DNA from: Bacillota bacterium | GTDB taxonomy: Bacteria > Bacillota > Dethiobacteria > DTU022 | DNA length: 64,000 nt | Assembly: GCA_029552125.1 (NCBI GenBank) | Contig: JAKPEE010000091.1 | Span: 259 to 64,258 of the forward strand | Direction of reading: 5' to 3' | Notes under the pieces: model-generated | The model's input: only the letters and a program-made list of their open reading frames with translations | Told to the model about the DNA's origin: nothing | Database searches by the model: none | Position numbers and translations under genes: made by a program | Shown here: positions 6,992 through 11,188 of the stretch, one piece after another | How positions within the stretch are numbered: the stretch's first letter is position 1 | Layout: each line of letters begins with the position of its first letter

Positions 6992-8248
6992 ATGCTGCAA
7001 GCAGACCTGTTAATAAAAAATGCGGCCCAGCTTTTAACCATGGCCGGGCATAGTAAAGAGCCCAAACGGGGTGCTGAACTGGCCGATCCCGGCATCATCA
7101 CCGGTGGGGCCGTGGCCGCCTTTGACGGCGTAATTGTAGCCGTGGGGCCGACGGAACAGGTAGAAGAGGAAGTAGAACTTTTACCCCATGCCCGGGTTTA
7201 CGACGCCTGGGGCAAGGTGGTGGCGCCCTGCTTTGTTGAGCCCCACACCCATATCGTTTTTGGCGGCAGCCGCCAGAATGAATTTGTGATGCGGCTGCAG
7301 GGGAAGAGCTACCTGGAGATCATGCAGGCCGGCGGGGGGATCGTCAATTCAGTCAAGGCCACCGCCGCCGCTTCCGATGCGGAGTTGCTGGAGACCGCCC
7401 GCCGCCGCCTCGACCACTTTGCCCGGCATGGTGTCGGCACCGTGGAGGTGAAAAGCGGTTACGGCCTTTCCGTGGCCGAAGAGCTGCGCATGCTGCGGGT
7501 GATTCGCAAACTGGACGCCCTACACCCCCTGGACCTGGTGCCCACATTCCTGGGAGCCCACGCTTTCCCGAAAGAATACCGCGGGCGGGAAGAGGAATAT
7601 GTAGATCTGGTAGTCGAAGAAATGATCCCCCGGGTGGCTGAAGAAAAGCTGGCCCGCTTTTGCGATGTTTTTTGCGATGTGGGCGTGTTCACGGTGGAGC
7701 AGTCGCGGCGCATCCTCGAGGCAGGCAAGCGTTACGGGCTGCTGCCGAAATTACATGCCGACGAGCTGGCCTCCTTCGGCGGGGCCGAGCTGGCGGCGGA
7801 AATGGGGGCCGTGTCGGCGGATCACCTGCTCAAGGCTTCACCGGAGGGAATAAAAGCCCTGGCCGAAGCCGGCGTTATCGCCGTGCTGCTGCCCGGTACG
7901 GCTTTCTTTCTTAATGAAGAATACGCACCGGCGCGGCAAATGATCGAGCAGGGCGTGGCCGTGGCCCTCTCCACGGACAGAAATCCCGGCTCTTCGCCCA
8001 CCGAGGCCACCCACCTGATCCTGACCCTGGCCTGCATCAAAATGAAAATGCTGCCGGCGGAAGCCTTATGCGCCGCCACCATTAACGCCGCCCATGCCAT
8101 CGGAATGGCTCACCGGGTCGGCAGCCTCGAAACAGGCAAGCAGGCGGATGTGGTGATTATCGACGCCCCGGACTGCAATTACATTCCCTATCACTTCGGC
8201 ACCAGCCTGGTGGAGGCGGTGTTTAAAAAAGGAAGGAAGATTAAATGA
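6992..8248 (+). CDS. hutI: Imidazolonepropionase
   Basis: ATG 6992 follows a GGGAGG RBS; the ORF-track start at 6872 is probably too long. Amidohydrolase metal motif EPHTHIVFGGSR, and the HADE / SADHL / DRNPGS blocks. The last ~8 codons are AT-rich. Confidence 0.9.
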   Translation: MLQADLLIKNAAQLLTMAGHSKEPKRGAELADPGIITGGAVAAFDGVIVAVGPTEQVEEEVELLPHARVYDAWGKVVAPCFVEPHTHIVFGGSRQNEFVMRLQGKSYLEIMQAGGGIVNSVKATAAASDAELLETARRRLDHFARHGVGTVEVKSGYGLSVAEELRMLRVIRKLDALHPLDLVPTFLGAHAFPKEYRGREEEYVDLVVEEMIPRVAEEKLARFCDVFCDVGVFTVEQSRRILEAGKRYGLLPKLHADELASFGGAELAAEMGAVSADHLLKASPEGIKALAEAGVIAVLLPGTAFFLNEEYAPARQMIEQGVAVALSTDRNPGSSPTEATHLILTLACIKMKMLPAEALCAATINAAHAIGMAHRVGSLETGKQADVVIIDAPDCNYIPYHFGTSLVEAVFKKGRKIK

Positions 8249-8359
8249 GATGATTTAATCCTATATATAACATACGTCCTGAAAAATTTTTACTTTTTAA
8301 TAAAGGAGAATTTTGGAGTTTTATAGAATAAGTTACACAAAGAATAGGAGGTAAAGATT

Positions 8360-8557
8360 ATGTCAAAGGAATATATACCATTAGTTATTAAACTTAATCT
8401 AAAAAATCCTATTCCCTATAATTCTAAAAATGTAGATGAAGTTGTAAGTAGAATTAAAAGCGTATACAATTTTAAAAGTATTGAAATTAGCGAGGATGAA
8501 GTGTCACTTAATGATTGTATTCCAATTATAAATGTTAAAATGGAAAAAAAGAAATAG
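8360..8557 (+). CDS. Hypothetical small protein (65 aa), first gene of the AT-rich cassette
   Basis: ATG is preceded by a perfect AGGAGG RBS with a 7-8 nt spacer. Codon usage matches the cassette. I recognise no motif. Confidence 0.55.
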   Translation: MSKEYIPLVIKLNLKNPIPYNSKNVDEVVSRIKSVYNFKSIEISEDEVSLNDCIPIINVKMEKKK

Positions 8558-8571
8558 AAGTAGTAGTTTTC

Positions 8572-9012
8572 ATGTCAGAACGTCAAAATTACATGGAGAA
8601 AATTACTAATATTTTAGAATTAATTGATGAATCAATATGGGAAAAAAGCAACGTAATTCAAAATATGGAAATTATAAGTATGATAAGCGGGCTAGAAAAT
8701 ACAGATATTCTGGAATTTTTTTTAGATACTAGAGATTATTCACAATTTGGTAATATTATCAAATCTACTTTGCGCTTTGAAGTTGAGATTGATAAGAAAG
8801 TGTTATCATTTTTATTTAATTATACTAATGAAACCTCCGCATTAACAAATATTGGCATAAATTATGACTCATTTTTTCATAATAAGGAAGAATTTTGCAA
8901 ACAAACGAACGAACTGAGGCAATATCTAGAAGATAAGATGAGATTATATTTAACTACAGTATGCAAAGGAAACTATCAATTTATAAATCTCGATGAGATA
9001 AAAATAAAATAA
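8572..9012 (+). CDS. Hypothetical acidic protein (146 aa), second gene of the AT-rich cassette
   Basis: It starts 14 nt after the gene A stop, on the same strand and with the same composition. No recognisable motif, and the RBS is weak. Confidence 0.55.
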   Translation: MSERQNYMEKITNILELIDESIWEKSNVIQNMEIISMISGLENTDILEFFLDTRDYSQFGNIIKSTLRFEVEIDKKVLSFLFNYTNETSALTNIGINYDSFFHNKEEFCKQTNELRQYLEDKMRLYLTTVCKGNYQFINLDEIKIK

Positions 9013-9025
9013 AGGGAGATTTGAC

Positions 9026-9847
9026 GTGAATAACGCTAAATCTACGTATCTTAATTGGAATCTGATAGATATGACATTAGATCGGGCTTTAATGAATAAT
9101 CAGATGCCCGATTGTTCGGATATTCAAAGAATTGAACGATCAATCCAAAAAATTAACATGTTAACTACAAGTTTGTACTTTAATGTACAAGCTGTCCAAA
9201 AAGAAATAAATGTTGACGTTGATTCTTTAAAAGCCTTAGGAATCAGTTGTGAATATTTACCTGAAATCGTAAAAATGCTTCAAGATAAACAAAATAGATG
9301 TAAAGTAAATGTCATAGAGCAGCCAAATCATAATAGAATATATAAATATATAAAAGCAGGTTTTACAATTATGGCTGGATATTATTCAAATTCACCTTTG
9401 GTTCAAATAAATGATGTTAAACATGCATGGAATAATTTTATTGAAACTTCAACCTTAAAATTATTTATTATATTTTTTATGTCTTTACTTTCATTAATAT
9501 TTGGGGGCCTTACTGCTGTTAATTGGGCATTAATAGTAACGACAATTGTACATTTTATAACACGATGTATTGCAAATAAGTATAGAAATAGAGATGATTA
9601 TATTCATATTTCAAGAAACATACAATTGCTAATTTTCCCATATTTATTACTTGCCATTGCTAATTGTTTAAATCCTTTTGTTTCTCTTGAAGGCCTGCCA
9701 GACAATACACTTGTAACTATAATAACGATTGGAATAATATATTCAGAAATTAAAGGAATTGTAGAAAATGCAAAAATAGCTAATTTACCAGTACCAACAA
9801 TATTAGAATGGCTTGTTGGAATAACAAAGAAAAATGAAAATCTCTAA
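9026..9847 (+). CDS. Membrane protein with an unknown ~140-aa N-terminal soluble domain fused to a TcdE/phage-holin (Phage_holin_4_1-like) 4-TM domain
   Basis: GTG 9026 lies 8 nt after an AGGGAG RBS and 13 nt after the gene B stop. There are four hydrophobic helices (about aa 145-247). The C-terminal IYSEIKGIVENAKIANLPVPTILEWL resembles the Y-E-x-x-S-I-L-x-N...GLPVP signature I recall from TcdE and related holins. Confidence 0.65.
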   Translation: MNNAKSTYLNWNLIDMTLDRALMNNQMPDCSDIQRIERSIQKINMLTTSLYFNVQAVQKEINVDVDSLKALGISCEYLPEIVKMLQDKQNRCKVNVIEQPNHNRIYKYIKAGFTIMAGYYSNSPLVQINDVKHAWNNFIETSTLKLFIIFFMSLLSLIFGGLTAVNWALIVTTIVHFITRCIANKYRNRDDYIHISRNIQLLIFPYLLLAIANCLNPFVSLEGLPDNTLVTIITIGIIYSEIKGIVENAKIANLPVPTILEWLVGITKKNENL

Positions 9848-10410
9848 GCATTTGAGTGTAATGTCTCCTCCAGGTGGCGTTTGATCTGTTGCAGCAGAAC
9901 GTTAAATTCCCGGTTTAGGGCATTCTTTGCTTGAAGCCATTGTGTGGTTCGTTCAAGATTAATCGCGGCGACGGCGCTGCCGCTGATGCCGCTATCTTTT
10001 AACAGGGCCTCGCTGCCTGCCTGTTCCAGCCGGGCCCGTTCTTTTTCCAGTTGCTCCCGGTATGCCCGGCATACTTCCTGCAGGGCTGCGCCGGCTTCTC
10101 CGCTTAGCAGTTCAGAGGCAAGTTTTTGATACGCTGCCAGCACCTGCTCGCAGGTATCGGGGTTCAATCCGGCGGTGATTCCTTGTAAAAGCGACTTTTT
10201 CGCGGCCGGGAGCGCGGCGGCAGGATAGTTGCCGATGCTTTCCGCCAGCCGCCCCAGCGTTAATTTATTATCCAGGTACGAAGCGGCCAGCAGCGCCGCC
10301 GCTCTGGTGTACTGGGCAAAAGCGAAGTCCTCCGGGTTGCTGTCAACGCTGCCTGCCAGTTTGTCTGCCCGCTCCAGGGCCAGCTCCCTGGCCGATTTTA
10401 TTTTTCCCAT
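9844..10410 (-). CDS. Conserved hypothetical protein (188 aa, alpha-helical)
   Basis: ATG 10410 (MGKIKSARELALERAD...) has a GAGGTGA RBS. The longer track ORF (to 10503) lacks an RBS. Its stop codon overlaps the stop codon of the convergent 9026-9847 gene. Confidence 0.7.
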   Translation of the reverse strand: MGKIKSARELALERADKLAGSVDSNPEDFAFAQYTRAAALLAASYLDNKLTLGRLAESIGNYPAAALPAAKKSLLQGITAGLNPDTCEQVLAAYQKLASELLSGEAGAALQEVCRAYREQLEKERARLEQAGSEALLKDSGISGSAVAAINLERTTQWLQAKNALNREFNVLLQQIKRHLEETLHSNA

Positions 10411-10492
10411 AATTTGCTCACCTCGCTTGTATCCTGCTATAATCATAACATAAAAAACGGCAGTAATGCTTAAATATAGAGGAGGCTGCAGC

Positions 10493-11188
10493 ATGCGCAT
10501 CACCGAAAAAATCTACGCCTATCCCTGGCGGGGGCGGGGCAACAACTGCAACAGTTACCTGTTTAAAGGGGAAATGACGGTCCTTTTTGATCCCGGGCAT
10601 ATTTACAATGAATTCGGGGAAAGTGGTTTTGAACTGCTGGTGCGGCAACTGGCTGCCGACGGTTTTGCGCTGGAAGACGTGGACCTGATCCTGTGCACCC
10701 ACGGCCATCCCGACCACATGGAAGCGGCGGGCCTGGCCCGGGAAAAAAGCGGGGCCCGTTTTGCCCTGCACCGGCAGGACGAGTTTATCCTGGAGGCGCT
10801 GGGACAGCGTTATGCCGCCGCGGCAGGCCAGGAACTGCCCGACCTGAAGCCCGATTTTTATCTGCAGGAGGGGGATCTGGAACTGGGCAAGGGAAAAACG
10901 GATTTAATCCGTGTCATCCATACGCCCGGCCATACGCCCGGATCAGTCTGTTTTTACCTGCCGGATCAAAAAGCCCTGATCAGTGGCGACACTGTTTTCG
11001 AAAACAGCATCGGCCGCTCCGACCTGCCCGGCGGCAATCTGGAGGAGCTGGAGCAAAGTGTGGCCAGGCTGGCCGCCATGGAAGCGGTGGAGCTTTTATT
11101 GCCCGGGCATATGGGTTTTGTTTCGGGATCGGACCATGTCCGCCGCAATTTTGCCCGCATCCGGAGGGTTTTTTTCGGTGCGATCTAA
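10493..11188 (+). CDS. MBL-fold metallo-hydrolase
   Basis: HGHPDH metal motif plus the HTPGHTPGS block. ATG 10493 follows a GAGGAGG RBS. Confidence 0.85.
   Translation: MRITEKIYAYPWRGRGNNCNSYLFKGEMTVLFDPGHIYNEFGESGFELLVRQLAADGFALEDVDLILCTHGHPDHMEAAGLAREKSGARFALHRQDEFILEALGQRYAAAAGQELPDLKPDFYLQEGDLELGKGKTDLIRVIHTPGHTPGSVCFYLPDQKALISGDTVFENSIGRSDLPGGNLEELEQSVARLAAMEAVELLLPGHMGFVSGSDHVRRNFARIRRVFFGAI

What the first reader, a model, noticed from the sequence alone, without database searches (positions are those of the whole stretch)
8222..9866. AT-rich three-gene cassette wedged between two convergent GC-rich genes: candidate undescribed membrane-effector (toxin or abortive-infection-like) system
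G+C falls from about 60% (36/60 in the line starting 8101) to about 23% (14/60 in the line starting 8401) at the 3' end of hutI. It recovers within about 20 nt after 9847.

The cassette holds three co-directional, tightly packed ORFs of 65, 146 and 273 aa. The gaps are 14 and 13 nt, and AGGAGG and AGGGAG RBSs are present. I can place neither of the first two proteins in any family.

The third protein joins an unknown ~140-aa soluble domain to a TcdE/phage-holin-like 4-TM domain. No endolysin, other phage gene, integrase, transposase or tRNA is nearby.

A small cassette combining unknown soluble proteins with a membrane-permeabilising effector is the general architecture of many abortive-infection, toxin-antitoxin and anti-phage modules. 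Such a strong compositional contrast argues for recent horizontal acquisition from a low-GC Firmicute or phage.
Basis: partly seen in the sequence, partly recalled or inferred. Interest (0 to 1): 0.9.

Follow-up and report, generated by a model that had tools for sequence, protein, structure and literature searches.

The report
Orphan prophage holin-like two-gene cassette
A 1.6-kb stretch of very AT-rich foreign DNA between two native genes carries a partly broken copy of a rare, uncharacterised two-gene prophage accessory module (a soluble partner plus a holin-like membrane protein with a long cytoplasmic extension), which may be a phage-exclusion device but is untested.

Summary
G+C falls from about 60% to about 25% across roughly 8249-9858, and three further metagenome assemblies contain both junctions. 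A sister genome has the empty site.

The cassette has two genes, not three. ORFs A and B are halves of one roughly 215-aa gene, split by a -1 frameshift at an A7G run (8544-8551). Seven homologues are uninterrupted there, and B has no ribosome-binding site.

ORF C is intact. It has a roughly 140-aa cytoplasmic N-domain followed by a divergent four-helix Phage_holin_4_1 domain.

An exhaustive search found only 39 representative relatives of C, all named ones from Bacillota. In each of the ten distinct other contexts where the upstream gene could be read, a soluble partner gene lies directly upstream. The partner family co-varies with C's N-domain type.

In prophages the module is a separate unit. 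It lies downstream of a complete canonical holin-endolysin pair, or once between the repressor and ImmA/integrase.

There are no matches in PADLOC, PHROGs, PDB, deposited phages or plasmids.

My best reading is a relic of a partner-gated, Rex-like membrane effector. The anatomy is firm; the function is inferred.

The parts
8249..9858 (+). Inserted AT-rich foreign segment (about 1.6 kb). It takes the place of the intergenic spacer seen in the sister genome.
   Evidence: DNA homology to the empty-site locus L005 stops at 8232 and resumes at 9936. At protein level hutI is native up to its stop at 8248 (KKGRKIK here, KRGRRIV in L005). The convergent gene is native up to about 9859. G+C profile. 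No terminal direct or inverted repeats.
8346..8351 (+). AGGAGG ribosome-binding site of the partner gene, 8 nt before the ATG at 8360.
   Evidence: Read directly from the sequence.
8360..8557 (+). ORF A (65 aa). It is the conserved N-terminal part of the partner gene, read in the zero frame to TAG.
   Evidence: It aligns with residues 1-63 of the uninterrupted 202-215-aa partners of seven homologous modules. The same N-terminal motif is fused to the holin domain in P0012.
8545..8551 (+). A_AAA_AAG heptamer inside the A7G run 8544-8551. This is the site of the -1 frameshift that separates A from B.
   Evidence: The B frame is open only from 8539 and the A frame stops at 8557, so the shift must lie within 8539-8557. 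An A8 run would restore one ORF. The run is identical in L001-L003.
8539..9012 (+). Continuation of the partner gene in the -1 frame. The annotated ORF B (8572-9012, 146 aa) begins at an internal Met and has no Shine-Dalgarno sequence.
   Evidence: A joined to B by a -1 shift (217 aa) aligns colinearly with the 214-aa ORF of L004 (E 6e-15, one gap). This includes the residues EIEVVVF, which are encoded upstream of B's ATG.
9013..9018 (+). AGGGAG ribosome-binding site of C, 7 nt before the GTG at 9026.
   Evidence: Read directly from the sequence. The GTG start and the MNN... N-terminus are shared with the L004 homologue.
9026..9847 (+). ORF C (273 aa, intact): an N-terminally extended holin-like membrane protein.
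   Evidence: Exhaustive HMMER search found 39 representatives at E<=1e-3 and 24 at E<=1e-30, mostly 255-300 aa. Of 27 aligned members, 26 hit PF05105.
9026..9445 (+). Predicted cytoplasmic, mostly helical N-domain of C (residues 1 to about 140). Residues 1 to about 95 form the class I variable region; residues 95 to about 143 form the conserved juxtamembrane segment.
   Evidence: No hydrophobic segment and no signal peptide. It matches an N-domain profile built from ten other members at E 2.9e-5. Helices come from a low-confidence model.
9485..9823 (+). Phage_holin_4_1-like membrane domain (residues 154-266). Four hydrophobic helices lie at about 145-165, 167-182, 199-219 and 229-246.
   Evidence: Pfam hit. 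Hydropathy of C and of the family, a basic loop at 183-198 and an acidic loop at 220-228 fit an N-in/C-in topology.
6992..8248 (+). hutI (imidazolonepropionase), the native left flank.
   Evidence: Amidohydro_1/3 hits. 95% identical to L005.
9844..10410 (-). Native convergent 188-aa gene of unknown function. Its stop (9844-9846) overlaps C's stop (9845-9847), and its last four codons (HSNA) are absent from the L005 orthologue.

Best explanation
**What is shown**
- The segment from about 8249 to about 9858 is foreign DNA from a low-GC Bacillota bacterium or its phage. It was captured between hutI and a convergent gene.
- It carries one copy of a conserved two-gene module.
- Gene 1 encodes a soluble alpha/beta partner of about 215 aa. 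Here it is split into ORFs A and B by loss of one A in a homopolymer run.
- Gene 2 is ORF C. It has a cytoplasmic N-domain, a conserved juxtamembrane segment and a four-helix holin-like domain.
- Elsewhere the module is an accessory cassette of temperate phages and integrative elements, separate from the phage's own holin-endolysin pair.

**What is inferred**
- The partner binds the N-domain of the membrane protein and gates pore formation.
- A lysogen would then collapse its membrane potential, or lyse early, when another phage infects. This is Rex-like abortive infection or exclusion.
- In this genome the module is an orphan relic. The partner is broken (at most a few per cent could be restored by slippage on A_AAA_AAG), the terminator is lost and the codon usage is foreign. 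It is probably crippled or silent.
For: **Foreign origin and reality**
- G+C and GC3 contrast.
- Empty site in L005.
- Three further assemblies span both junctions.

**Two genes, not three**
- A joined to B by a -1 shift aligns end to end with the single ORF of L004 (E 6e-15).
- A partner profile finds the upstream ORFs of L093, L098, L104, L102 and L086/87 at E between 1e-78 and 3e-5, against 2334 background ORFs.
- All seven other partners are uninterrupted across the junction.
- B lacks a Shine-Dalgarno sequence.

**A conserved module**
- The partner lies directly upstream, 3-27 nt away or overlapping by 8 nt, in L004, L085, L086/87, L093, L095, L096, L098, L102, L104 and L105.

**Co-variation**
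- All 8 members with a class I N-domain have an AB-family partner.
- None of the 3 members with other N-domains does. Their partners are 142, 135 and 208 aa.

**Accessory rather than lysis role**
- L096, L098, L104 and L105 each carry their own short PF05105 holin and an endolysin upstream.
- Terminator-like sites follow the endolysin gene and the module in L104. In L098 a promoter-like site precedes the module and a terminator-like site follows it.
- In a Bacillus cereus prophage the module lies between the cI-like repressor and ImmA plus the serine integrase, in the same orientation.

**Orphan copies decay**
- The window has a frameshifted partner.
- L004 has an in-frame TAA at codon 41 of the C homologue, inside a conserved motif.
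- Every copy borne on a phage or integrative element is intact.

**Precedents**
- RexAB-like Sbash gp30/31 pairs a soluble protein with a four-helix membrane protein (PMC6426596).
- Epona is a defence protein with a holin domain (bioRxiv 10.1101/2024.07.02.601686).
Against: - There is no experimental evidence for any member.
- Neither protein matches any of the 5027 PADLOC models, any PHROG, or RexA/RexB-type domains.
- Four contexts lie immediately after a lysis cassette, which fits a lysis-timing role equally well.
- The structure models were useless (pLDDT 38 and 45), so the partner/N-domain contact is inferred only from co-variation among related sequences.
- Only about a dozen contexts could be read.
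- A canonical sigma-70 promoter was not found upstream of A, so expression here is unknown.
Confidence: 0.45

Rival explanations
1. Lysis-timing accessory. The extended holin paralogue, with its partner, acts as an antiholin or holin modulator. It co-assembles with the phage's own PF05105 holin to delay or trigger lysis. It would be inert in this host.
For: - The module lies directly downstream of a holin-endolysin pair or an endolysin fragment in L096, L098, L104 and L105.
- All four of those phages use a PF05105-type canonical holin, the same family as C's membrane domain.
Against: - Terminator-like sites follow the endolysin gene in L104. A promoter-like site precedes the module in L098.
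- The B. cereus copy sits in the lysogeny module, co-oriented with the repressor and integrase.
- The L102 and L093 contexts show no lysis genes nearby.
- The variable sensor-like N-domain and partner are not expected of an antiholin.
Confidence: 0.2
2. Non-lytic export, as with TcdE. The holin-like protein releases the signal-peptide-less partner protein, a lysogenic-conversion factor or bacteriocin, from the cell.
For: - PF05105 includes TcdE and TcsE, which export large clostridial toxins that lack signal peptides (PMC8878733).
- The partner has no signal peptide and always lies next to C.
- The position at the end of the prophage is typical of conversion genes.
Against: - C does not reach NCBIfam TIGR01593 holin_tox_secr. 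Only 2 of 27 members gave weak hits.
- Co-variation of the partner with a cytoplasmic N-domain points to an intracellular interaction rather than cargo.
- The partner shows no toxin or enzyme domain.
Confidence: 0.1
3. Recoded functional system. The A_AAA_AAG site is a programmed -1 frameshift, or a phase-variable A-run. The cell would then make both the 65-aa A and the 217-aa A-B fusion, and the cassette would be active here.
For: - A canonical X_XXY_YYZ heptamer lies in the correct register.
- The zero-frame stop lies two codons downstream.
- B has no ribosome-binding site of its own.
- A downstream hairpin is predicted (-14.5 kcal/mol, z = -2.1).
- The run is identical in four assemblies.
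Against: - None of seven homologues has a frameshift or an A-run requirement at this position.
- There is no Shine-Dalgarno-like stimulator upstream, and the hairpin is weak and AU-rich.
- Deleting one A from an A8 run produces exactly this register automatically.
- The only other orphan copy also carries a disabling mutation.
Confidence: 0.1
4. Classical toxin-antitoxin pair. C is a constitutively toxic pore and the partner is its antitoxin.
For: - The two genes are compact and sometimes overlap by 8 nt (L093, L105), and they sit on mobile elements.
- The L004 copy lies beside a HepT-like toxin fragment.
Against: - Here the putative antitoxin is broken while the putative toxin is intact. This genotype is fixed in at least three samples. 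That would be lethal unless C is silent.
- No TA-family domains were found.
Confidence: 0.07
5. Assembly chimera or contaminating read-through that joins DNA of two organisms.
For: An extreme composition change over about 20 nt at both ends.
Against: - L001 (11 kb), L002 and L003 come from three samples and two assemblers. They contain both junctions with at most one mismatch.
- The reading frames of hutI and of the convergent gene run cleanly to stop codons at the junctions.
Confidence: 0.01

Closest known systems
Phage_holin_4_1 holins (Pfam PF05105; TcdE/TcsE and class I-like holins of Firmicutes phages)
   Same: - The C-terminal 115 residues of C pass the Pfam gathering score, as do 26 of 27 relatives.
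- The domain is multi-helix and hydrophobic, with a charged C-terminal tail.
- NCBI already names the relatives 'phage holin family protein'.
   Different: - C is twice the usual length, with an N-terminal cytoplasmic extension of about 140 aa.
- The membrane domain is divergent. A family profile finds only a handful of short canonical holins, at about 37 bits, among 1.84 billion proteins.
- There is no endolysin partner here. In relatives the phage has a separate canonical holin.
- A soluble partner gene always lies upstream.
Lambda RexA/RexB and the Rex-like Sbash gp30/gp31 prophage defence (PMC6426596, PMC11077077)
   Same: - A two-gene unit: a soluble protein followed by a four-helix membrane protein with N- and C-termini inside.
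- It is carried by temperate phages.
- One relative (B. cereus) sits next to the repressor gene, as rexAB does.
   Different: - No sequence relationship. The partner lacks DUF4747 and C does not match RexB.
- The membrane protein is holin-derived and carries a large cytoplasmic domain.
- Most copies lie after the lysis cassette rather than beside the repressor.
- No phenotype is known.
Epona (Vibrio integron cassette defence protein: Mrr_cat nuclease fused to a holin domain; bioRxiv 10.1101/2024.07.02.601686)
   Same: A holin-type membrane domain fused to an additional N-terminal domain, in a protein with an anti-phage role.
   Different: - Epona is a single protein with a nuclease domain and two helices.
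- Here there is no nuclease, there are four helices and there is a separate partner.
- Not homologous as far as tested (PADLOC and Pfam).
IS3/dnaX-type -1 programmed frameshift sites (A_AAA_AAG)
   Same: - An identical slippery heptamer in the correct register.
- The upstream ORF stops just after it.
- The downstream ORF has no initiation signals.
   Different: - No upstream Shine-Dalgarno-like stimulator.
- Only a weak hairpin.
- The frameshift is not conserved in any homologue.

Membership tests
Phage_holin_4_1 (PF05105) | Sequence match above Pfam's gathering score | tested here: met
   C residues 154-266 score 31.8 bits against a cut-off of 22.2 (E 1.7e-7). Of 27 relatives, 26 match.
Phage_holin_4_1 (PF05105) | Small protein (about 115-165 aa) that is essentially only the membrane domain | tested here: not met
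   C is 273 aa with a soluble N-terminal region of about 140 aa. Relatives are 255-380 aa.
Phage_holin_4_1 (PF05105) | Encoded beside an endolysin as the lysis holin of a phage | tested here: not met
   No endolysin lies near the window's cassette. In L096, L098, L104 and L105 a separate short PF05105 holin pairs with the endolysin.
Phage_holin_4_1 (PF05105) | Forms lethal membrane lesions when triggered | not testable with these tools
   Needs expression and membrane-integrity assays.
TcdE-type toxin-secretion holin (NCBIfam TIGR01593) | Match to the holin_tox_secr model | tested here: not met
   No hit for C. Two of 27 relatives hit weakly, best E 0.0019.
RexAB-type exclusion system | RexA-like soluble component with DUF4747 | tested here: not met
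   No Pfam hit for A, B, P0003 or the L085/L087 partners.
RexAB-type exclusion system | Soluble gene followed by a four-helix membrane protein gene, carried by a temperate phage | tested here: met
   Architecture in ten other contexts. Four hydrophobic helices.
RexAB-type exclusion system | Expressed in the lysogen and excludes superinfecting phage by depolarisation | not testable with these tools
   Position is only suggestive: it lies between the repressor and ImmA/integrase in L095.
Known or candidate anti-phage systems (PADLOC-DB v2) | Match to any of the 5027 models | tested here: not met
   No hit for A, B or C. Among 27 relatives there were only two isolated chance-level hits.
Programmed -1 ribosomal frameshift | X_XXY_YYZ heptamer in the zero-frame register inside the overlap of the two frames | tested here: met
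   A_AAA_AAG at 8545-8551; the frames overlap across 8539-8557.
Programmed -1 ribosomal frameshift | Stimulatory elements: an upstream SD-like sequence and a stable downstream structure | tested here: inconclusive
   No SD-like sequence upstream. The downstream AU-rich hairpin is -14.5 kcal/mol with z = -2.1, and 7 of 200 shuffles fold as well.
Programmed -1 ribosomal frameshift | The frameshift is conserved among homologues | tested here: not met
   All seven homologous partner genes are single ORFs at this position.
Prophage 'moron' (autonomous accessory cassette) | Own promoter and terminator, located at a prophage end or in the lysogeny region, absent from related genomes | tested here: met
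   For relatives, terminator-like and promoter-like sites bracket the module in L104 and L098, and positions are given. For the window the result is inconclusive: no terminator-like site was found, no promoter-like site lies between 8249 and 8359, and there is no prophage.

The most novel reading that the evidence does not exclude
The cassette represents an undescribed family of modular prophage-borne defence systems of Bacillota. A holin-derived pore has been turned into a regulated suicide or exclusion effector. It gained an exchangeable cytoplasmic sensor domain and a matching soluble partner. The family would be a 'sensor-gated holin', analogous to RexAB but of independent origin.
Probability: 0.35. 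Interest if true: 0.7.

Novelty: new variant of a known kind. Interest (0 to 1): 0.5.

Why it matters
- **A possible new defence type.** If the module is a partner-gated holin, it would show a phage lysis protein recruited as a regulated abortive-infection effector. The sensor parts would be interchangeable. That would add a Firmicutes counterpart to RexAB, and a new effector class that current defence-finder tools miss.
- **A caution for annotation.** 'Phage holin family protein' labels hide a distinct two-gene module.
- **A clean case of gene capture.** The locus shows very recent uptake of a 1.6-kb foreign fragment into a high-GC genome, followed by early decay.
- **This copy.** It is probably not functional.

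Tried and rejected
- **Structure prediction.** I submitted C and the A-B fusion with two-sequence alignments before the family was known. Both gave unusable models (pLDDT 38.4 and 45.3), and both prediction jobs are now spent.
- **Fold search.** Foldseek of the A-B model against PDB gave no hit with E<=0.001. The top hits were IS200-type transposases at TM 0.31-0.34 and 4-6% identity. I discard these as a generic alpha/beta resemblance from a poor model.
- **Profile searches against PDB.** Both family alignments found nothing.
- **Family libraries.** PADLOC, PHROGs and NCBIfam gave nothing for the three ORFs or the family.
- **Rfam.** No match in 7500-10800.
- **Mobile-element ends.** No terminal direct or inverted repeats, so no sign of a transposon or att site.
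- **Word-index protein searches.** These found only the window's own protein and one or two relatives. The exhaustive search was needed.
- **Degenerate DNA pattern scan of IMG/VR.** My own pattern gave five hits, none a family member.
- **tblastn.** C, P0007 and P0047 found no match in 50,697 phage records or 72,556 plasmids.
- **Partner homology limits.** The L095, L096 and L105 partners could not be related to the AB family.
- **Literature.** Searches found no description of this module.

Full report
**1. Observation**

In 200-nt windows G+C is 0.60-0.67 through hutI. It falls to 0.225-0.315 from 8200 to 9899 and returns to 0.575 or more from 9900. No other 1-kb block of the 64-kb window is below 0.40. 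Third-position G+C is 0.17-0.23 in the three ORFs, against 0.62-0.71 in the flanking genes.

The ORFs are exactly as listed: A 8360-8557, B 8572-9012 and C 9026-9847. There is no competing ORF of 40 aa or more on the other strand. AGGAGG precedes A and AGGGAG precedes C, but nothing resembling a Shine-Dalgarno sequence precedes B. There are no tRNA genes in the window.

The junctions are real. Three further metagenome assemblies (L001, 11 kb; L002; L003) come from three samples and two assemblers. They span both ends with zero or one mismatch.

**2. Empty site**

A scan of species-representative genomes with hutI found L005, a Bacillota MAG with 95% identical hutI. In L005, hutI is followed by a 267-nt spacer at 46-55% G+C that contains two G+C-rich inverted repeats. 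The convergent 184-aa gene follows directly, and there is no AT-rich DNA.

DNA homology between the window and L005 stops at 8232 and resumes at 9936. At protein level hutI is native up to its stop codon (KKGRKIK against KRGRRIV). The convergent gene is native up to about 9859, and its last four codons (HSNA) and its stop are new. The foreign segment is therefore about 8249-9858, and it replaced the spacer.

There are no terminal repeats. No terminator-like site remains anywhere between 8100 and 10000, and no promoter-like site was found between 8249 and 8359. As an inference, transcription of hutI and of the cassette probably runs on into whatever lies downstream.

**3. Two genes, not three**

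The word-index protein search found only C itself and one relative, P0002 (41% identity), in a 30%-G+C Halanaerobiales MAG (L004). In L004 the gene upstream of the C homologue is a single 214-aa ORF.

A and B lie in frames that differ by -1. The B frame is open only from 8539 and the A frame ends at 8557. The 19-nt overlap contains an A7G run. Joining the two at A_AAA_AAG (8545-8551) gives a 217-aa protein. This protein aligns end to end with the L004 ORF (E 6e-15, one gap). The alignment includes the residues EIEVVVF, which are encoded upstream of B's ATG.

I built a profile from five partner proteins and searched 2334 background ORFs. It recovers the upstream ORFs of further modules at E 5e-6 (L102) and 3e-5 (L086/87). 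All seven homologues are uninterrupted at the junction.

Restoring an A8 run would restore the ORF. The simplest reading is therefore a one-base deletion in a homopolymer. The resulting heptamer is the classic -1 slippery site, so a low level of full-length product is conceivable. However, there is no upstream stimulator, the downstream hairpin is weak (z = -2.1) and the shift is not conserved. The run is the same in all four assemblies.

**4. The membrane protein**

Residues 154-266 of C pass the PF05105 gathering score. Hydropathy of C and of the family shows:
- no signal peptide;
- a hydrophilic region of about 140 aa;
- helices at about 145-165, 167-182, 199-219 and 229-246;
- a basic loop at 183-198 and an acidic loop at 220-228.

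This fits an N-in/C-in four-helix topology with the N-domain in the cytoplasm.

**5. The family**

An exhaustive HMMER search of 1.84 billion representatives found only 39 proteins at E<=1e-3 and 24 at E<=1e-30. Nearly all are 255-300 aa. Ordinary short holins appear only at the bottom of the list, at about 37 bits.

Named members come from Bacillus cereus, Brevibacillus, Paenibacillus, Neobacillus, Amphibacillus, Clostridium and Halanaerobiales. They are labelled only 'phage holin family protein' or hypothetical. Of 27 aligned members, 26 hit PF05105. None hits a PADLOC model meaningfully, and NCBIfam gives two weak hits to TIGR01593. tblastn found no relative in 50,697 deposited phage genomes or 72,556 plasmids.

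**6. Contexts**

In all ten other distinct contexts where the upstream gene could be read, a soluble gene of 135-242 aa lies immediately upstream. It is 3-27 nt away, or overlaps by 8 nt.

- **L104** (Clostridium sp. 'deep sea' prophage): tail genes, a 149-aa PF05105 holin and an Amidase_3 endolysin. Terminator-like sites follow, then the 205-aa and 262-aa module genes, another terminator-like site, and a PIN-domain gene.
- **L098** (Brevibacillus brevis prophage remnant): a 152-aa holin, Amidase_2 and, further on, an Amidase_3 fragment. A promoter-like site precedes the 204-aa and 267-aa genes, and a terminator-like site follows them. Serine-recombinase fragments lie beyond.
- **L096:** a 144-aa holin, a Dam methylase, a GH25 endolysin and a 181-aa gene, then the 208-aa and 300-aa module.
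- **L105:** a holin fragment and an amidase, then the 135-aa and 264-aa module.
- **L102** (Amphibacillus marinus): an element carrying Phage_rep_O. The module is its last gene pair before host ABC-transporter genes.
- **L095** (B. cereus prophage): a cI-like repressor, a 142-aa gene, the 380-aa C homologue, ImmA (Peptidase_M78) and a serine integrase. All are co-oriented and divergent from the cro-like and replication genes.
- **L093:** an integrase-bearing element with a Dam methylase, DUF4417 and Amidoligase_2.
- **L085-L087:** short contigs. L086 and L087 are phage-like, with an HNH endonuclease and a tape-measure fragment.

The module is therefore an accessory cassette of temperate elements. 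It is present in addition to the phage's own holin-endolysin pair.

**7. Co-variation**

I built an N-domain profile from ten members whose context I had not seen. It recognises the N-domains of C, P0002, P0005, P0047, P0019, P0030, P0032 and P0043 (E from 5e-21 to 3e-5). It does not recognise those of P0007, P0008, P0014 or P0012.

All eight recognised members have an AB-family partner. The three non-recognised members with a separate upstream partner gene have partners of 142, 135 and 208 aa that are not detectably related to AB. In P0012 the first 46 residues or so resemble the partner's N-terminus and are fused directly to the juxtamembrane segment.

The constant part of the family is the juxtamembrane segment plus the four helices. 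The N-domain and the partner change together. This suggests, but does not prove, that they contact each other, because the sequences are related by descent.

**8. Mechanism**

The shown parts are the anatomy, the horizontal origin, the conserved pairing, the accessory position and the co-variation.

The inferred part is that the partner gates pore formation by the holin-like domain through the cytoplasmic N-domain, as a lysogen-expressed exclusion or abortive-infection device. This is comparable in layout to lambda RexAB and Sbash gp30/31 (PMC6426596). A holin domain in a defence protein has a precedent in Epona (bioRxiv 10.1101/2024.07.02.601686).

One genotype argument bears on direction. 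Here the partner is broken and C is intact, and this state is fixed in several samples. C alone is therefore not lethal at its expression level. That speaks against a toxin-antitoxin relation and for an activator, sensor or cargo role, unless C is silent.

Both orphan chromosomal copies are damaged. The window has the frameshift, and L004 has an in-frame TAA at codon 41 within the conserved IEN-L/M-K motif. All copies on phages or integrative elements are intact. This fits a function tied to the phage lifestyle.

The rivals are a lysis-timing modulator of PF05105 holins, TcdE-like export of the partner, a recoded active system and a toxin-antitoxin pair. None is excluded.

**9. What failed**

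Both structure predictions were run too early, on two-sequence alignments, and are unusable. The fold search was accordingly meaningless. Profile searches of PDB, PHROGs, PADLOC, NCBIfam and Rfam gave nothing.

**10. Verdict**

The cassette has two genes, with the first one broken. It belongs to a rare, undescribed prophage accessory module built around a divergent holin-family domain.

This particular copy is most likely a decaying relic. I rate the novelty as a new variant of a known kind, and the interest as moderate.

Noticed in passing
window 38529-64000: A long co-directional gene cluster at 40-52% G+C, against about 60% elsewhere in the window. It encodes group-1 glycosyltransferases, two CMP-sugar cytidylyltransferase-type proteins, UDP-GlcNAc 2-epimerase, a sugar nucleotidyltransferase, an asparagine-synthase-like protein and an ABC exporter. 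It looks like a horizontally exchanged surface-glycan or nonulosonic-acid cluster.
   Followed up: partly
L004 4340-5155 (Halanaerobiales MAG, GCA_030627905.1): The closest homologue of C is one reading frame interrupted by an in-frame TAA at codon 41, inside the conserved N-domain motif. An ATG four codons later could give a 227-aa truncated product. Its neighbours include a HepT-like fragment, an AAA_23 fragment and split PAF-AH genes, so the region looks like decaying accessory genes.
   Followed up: partly
L097 2457-3125 (protein P0012): A 222-aa natural fusion seen in two assemblies. About 46 residues resembling the partner's N-terminus are joined directly to the juxtamembrane and holin domain. 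It lies on a chromosome between a secA-like gene and a 334-aa unknown gene, near cysS.
   Followed up: partly
L096 5109-5543, L098 4227-4685, L104 6929-7378, L105 2-487: All four phages in which the module follows a lysis cassette use a canonical holin of the same Pfam family (PF05105) as the module's membrane domain. This could mean the effector arose by duplication of the phage's own holin, or that it interacts with such holins.
   Followed up: no
window 8249-8359 and 9844-9860, compared with L005 7258-7524: The insertion removed the two hairpin-containing terminator-like elements present in the sister genome's spacer. The stop codons of C and of the convergent gene now overlap, and the convergent gene gained four codons. 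Convergent read-through and antisense transcription of both genes is likely.
   Followed up: partly
L086 2411-3346: Directly downstream of the module there is a 311-aa ORF that matches only the C-terminal part of phage tape-measure proteins. An HNH endonuclease gene lies upstream (L087 316-636). The module may sit inside, or beside, a disrupted tail gene.
   Followed up: no
L095 8569-8997 and L105 1464-1871: The short partners (142 and 135 aa) of the non-class-I modules resemble each other weakly (30% over 63 residues, E 0.003). They may form a second partner family.
   Followed up: no
L006 (JAGUZX010000131.1): A MAG labelled Desulfovibrio sp. carries the same hut gene neighbourhood at 72-75% DNA identity to this Bacillota-like window. 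This suggests a mislabelled bin or a misbinned contig.
   Followed up: no
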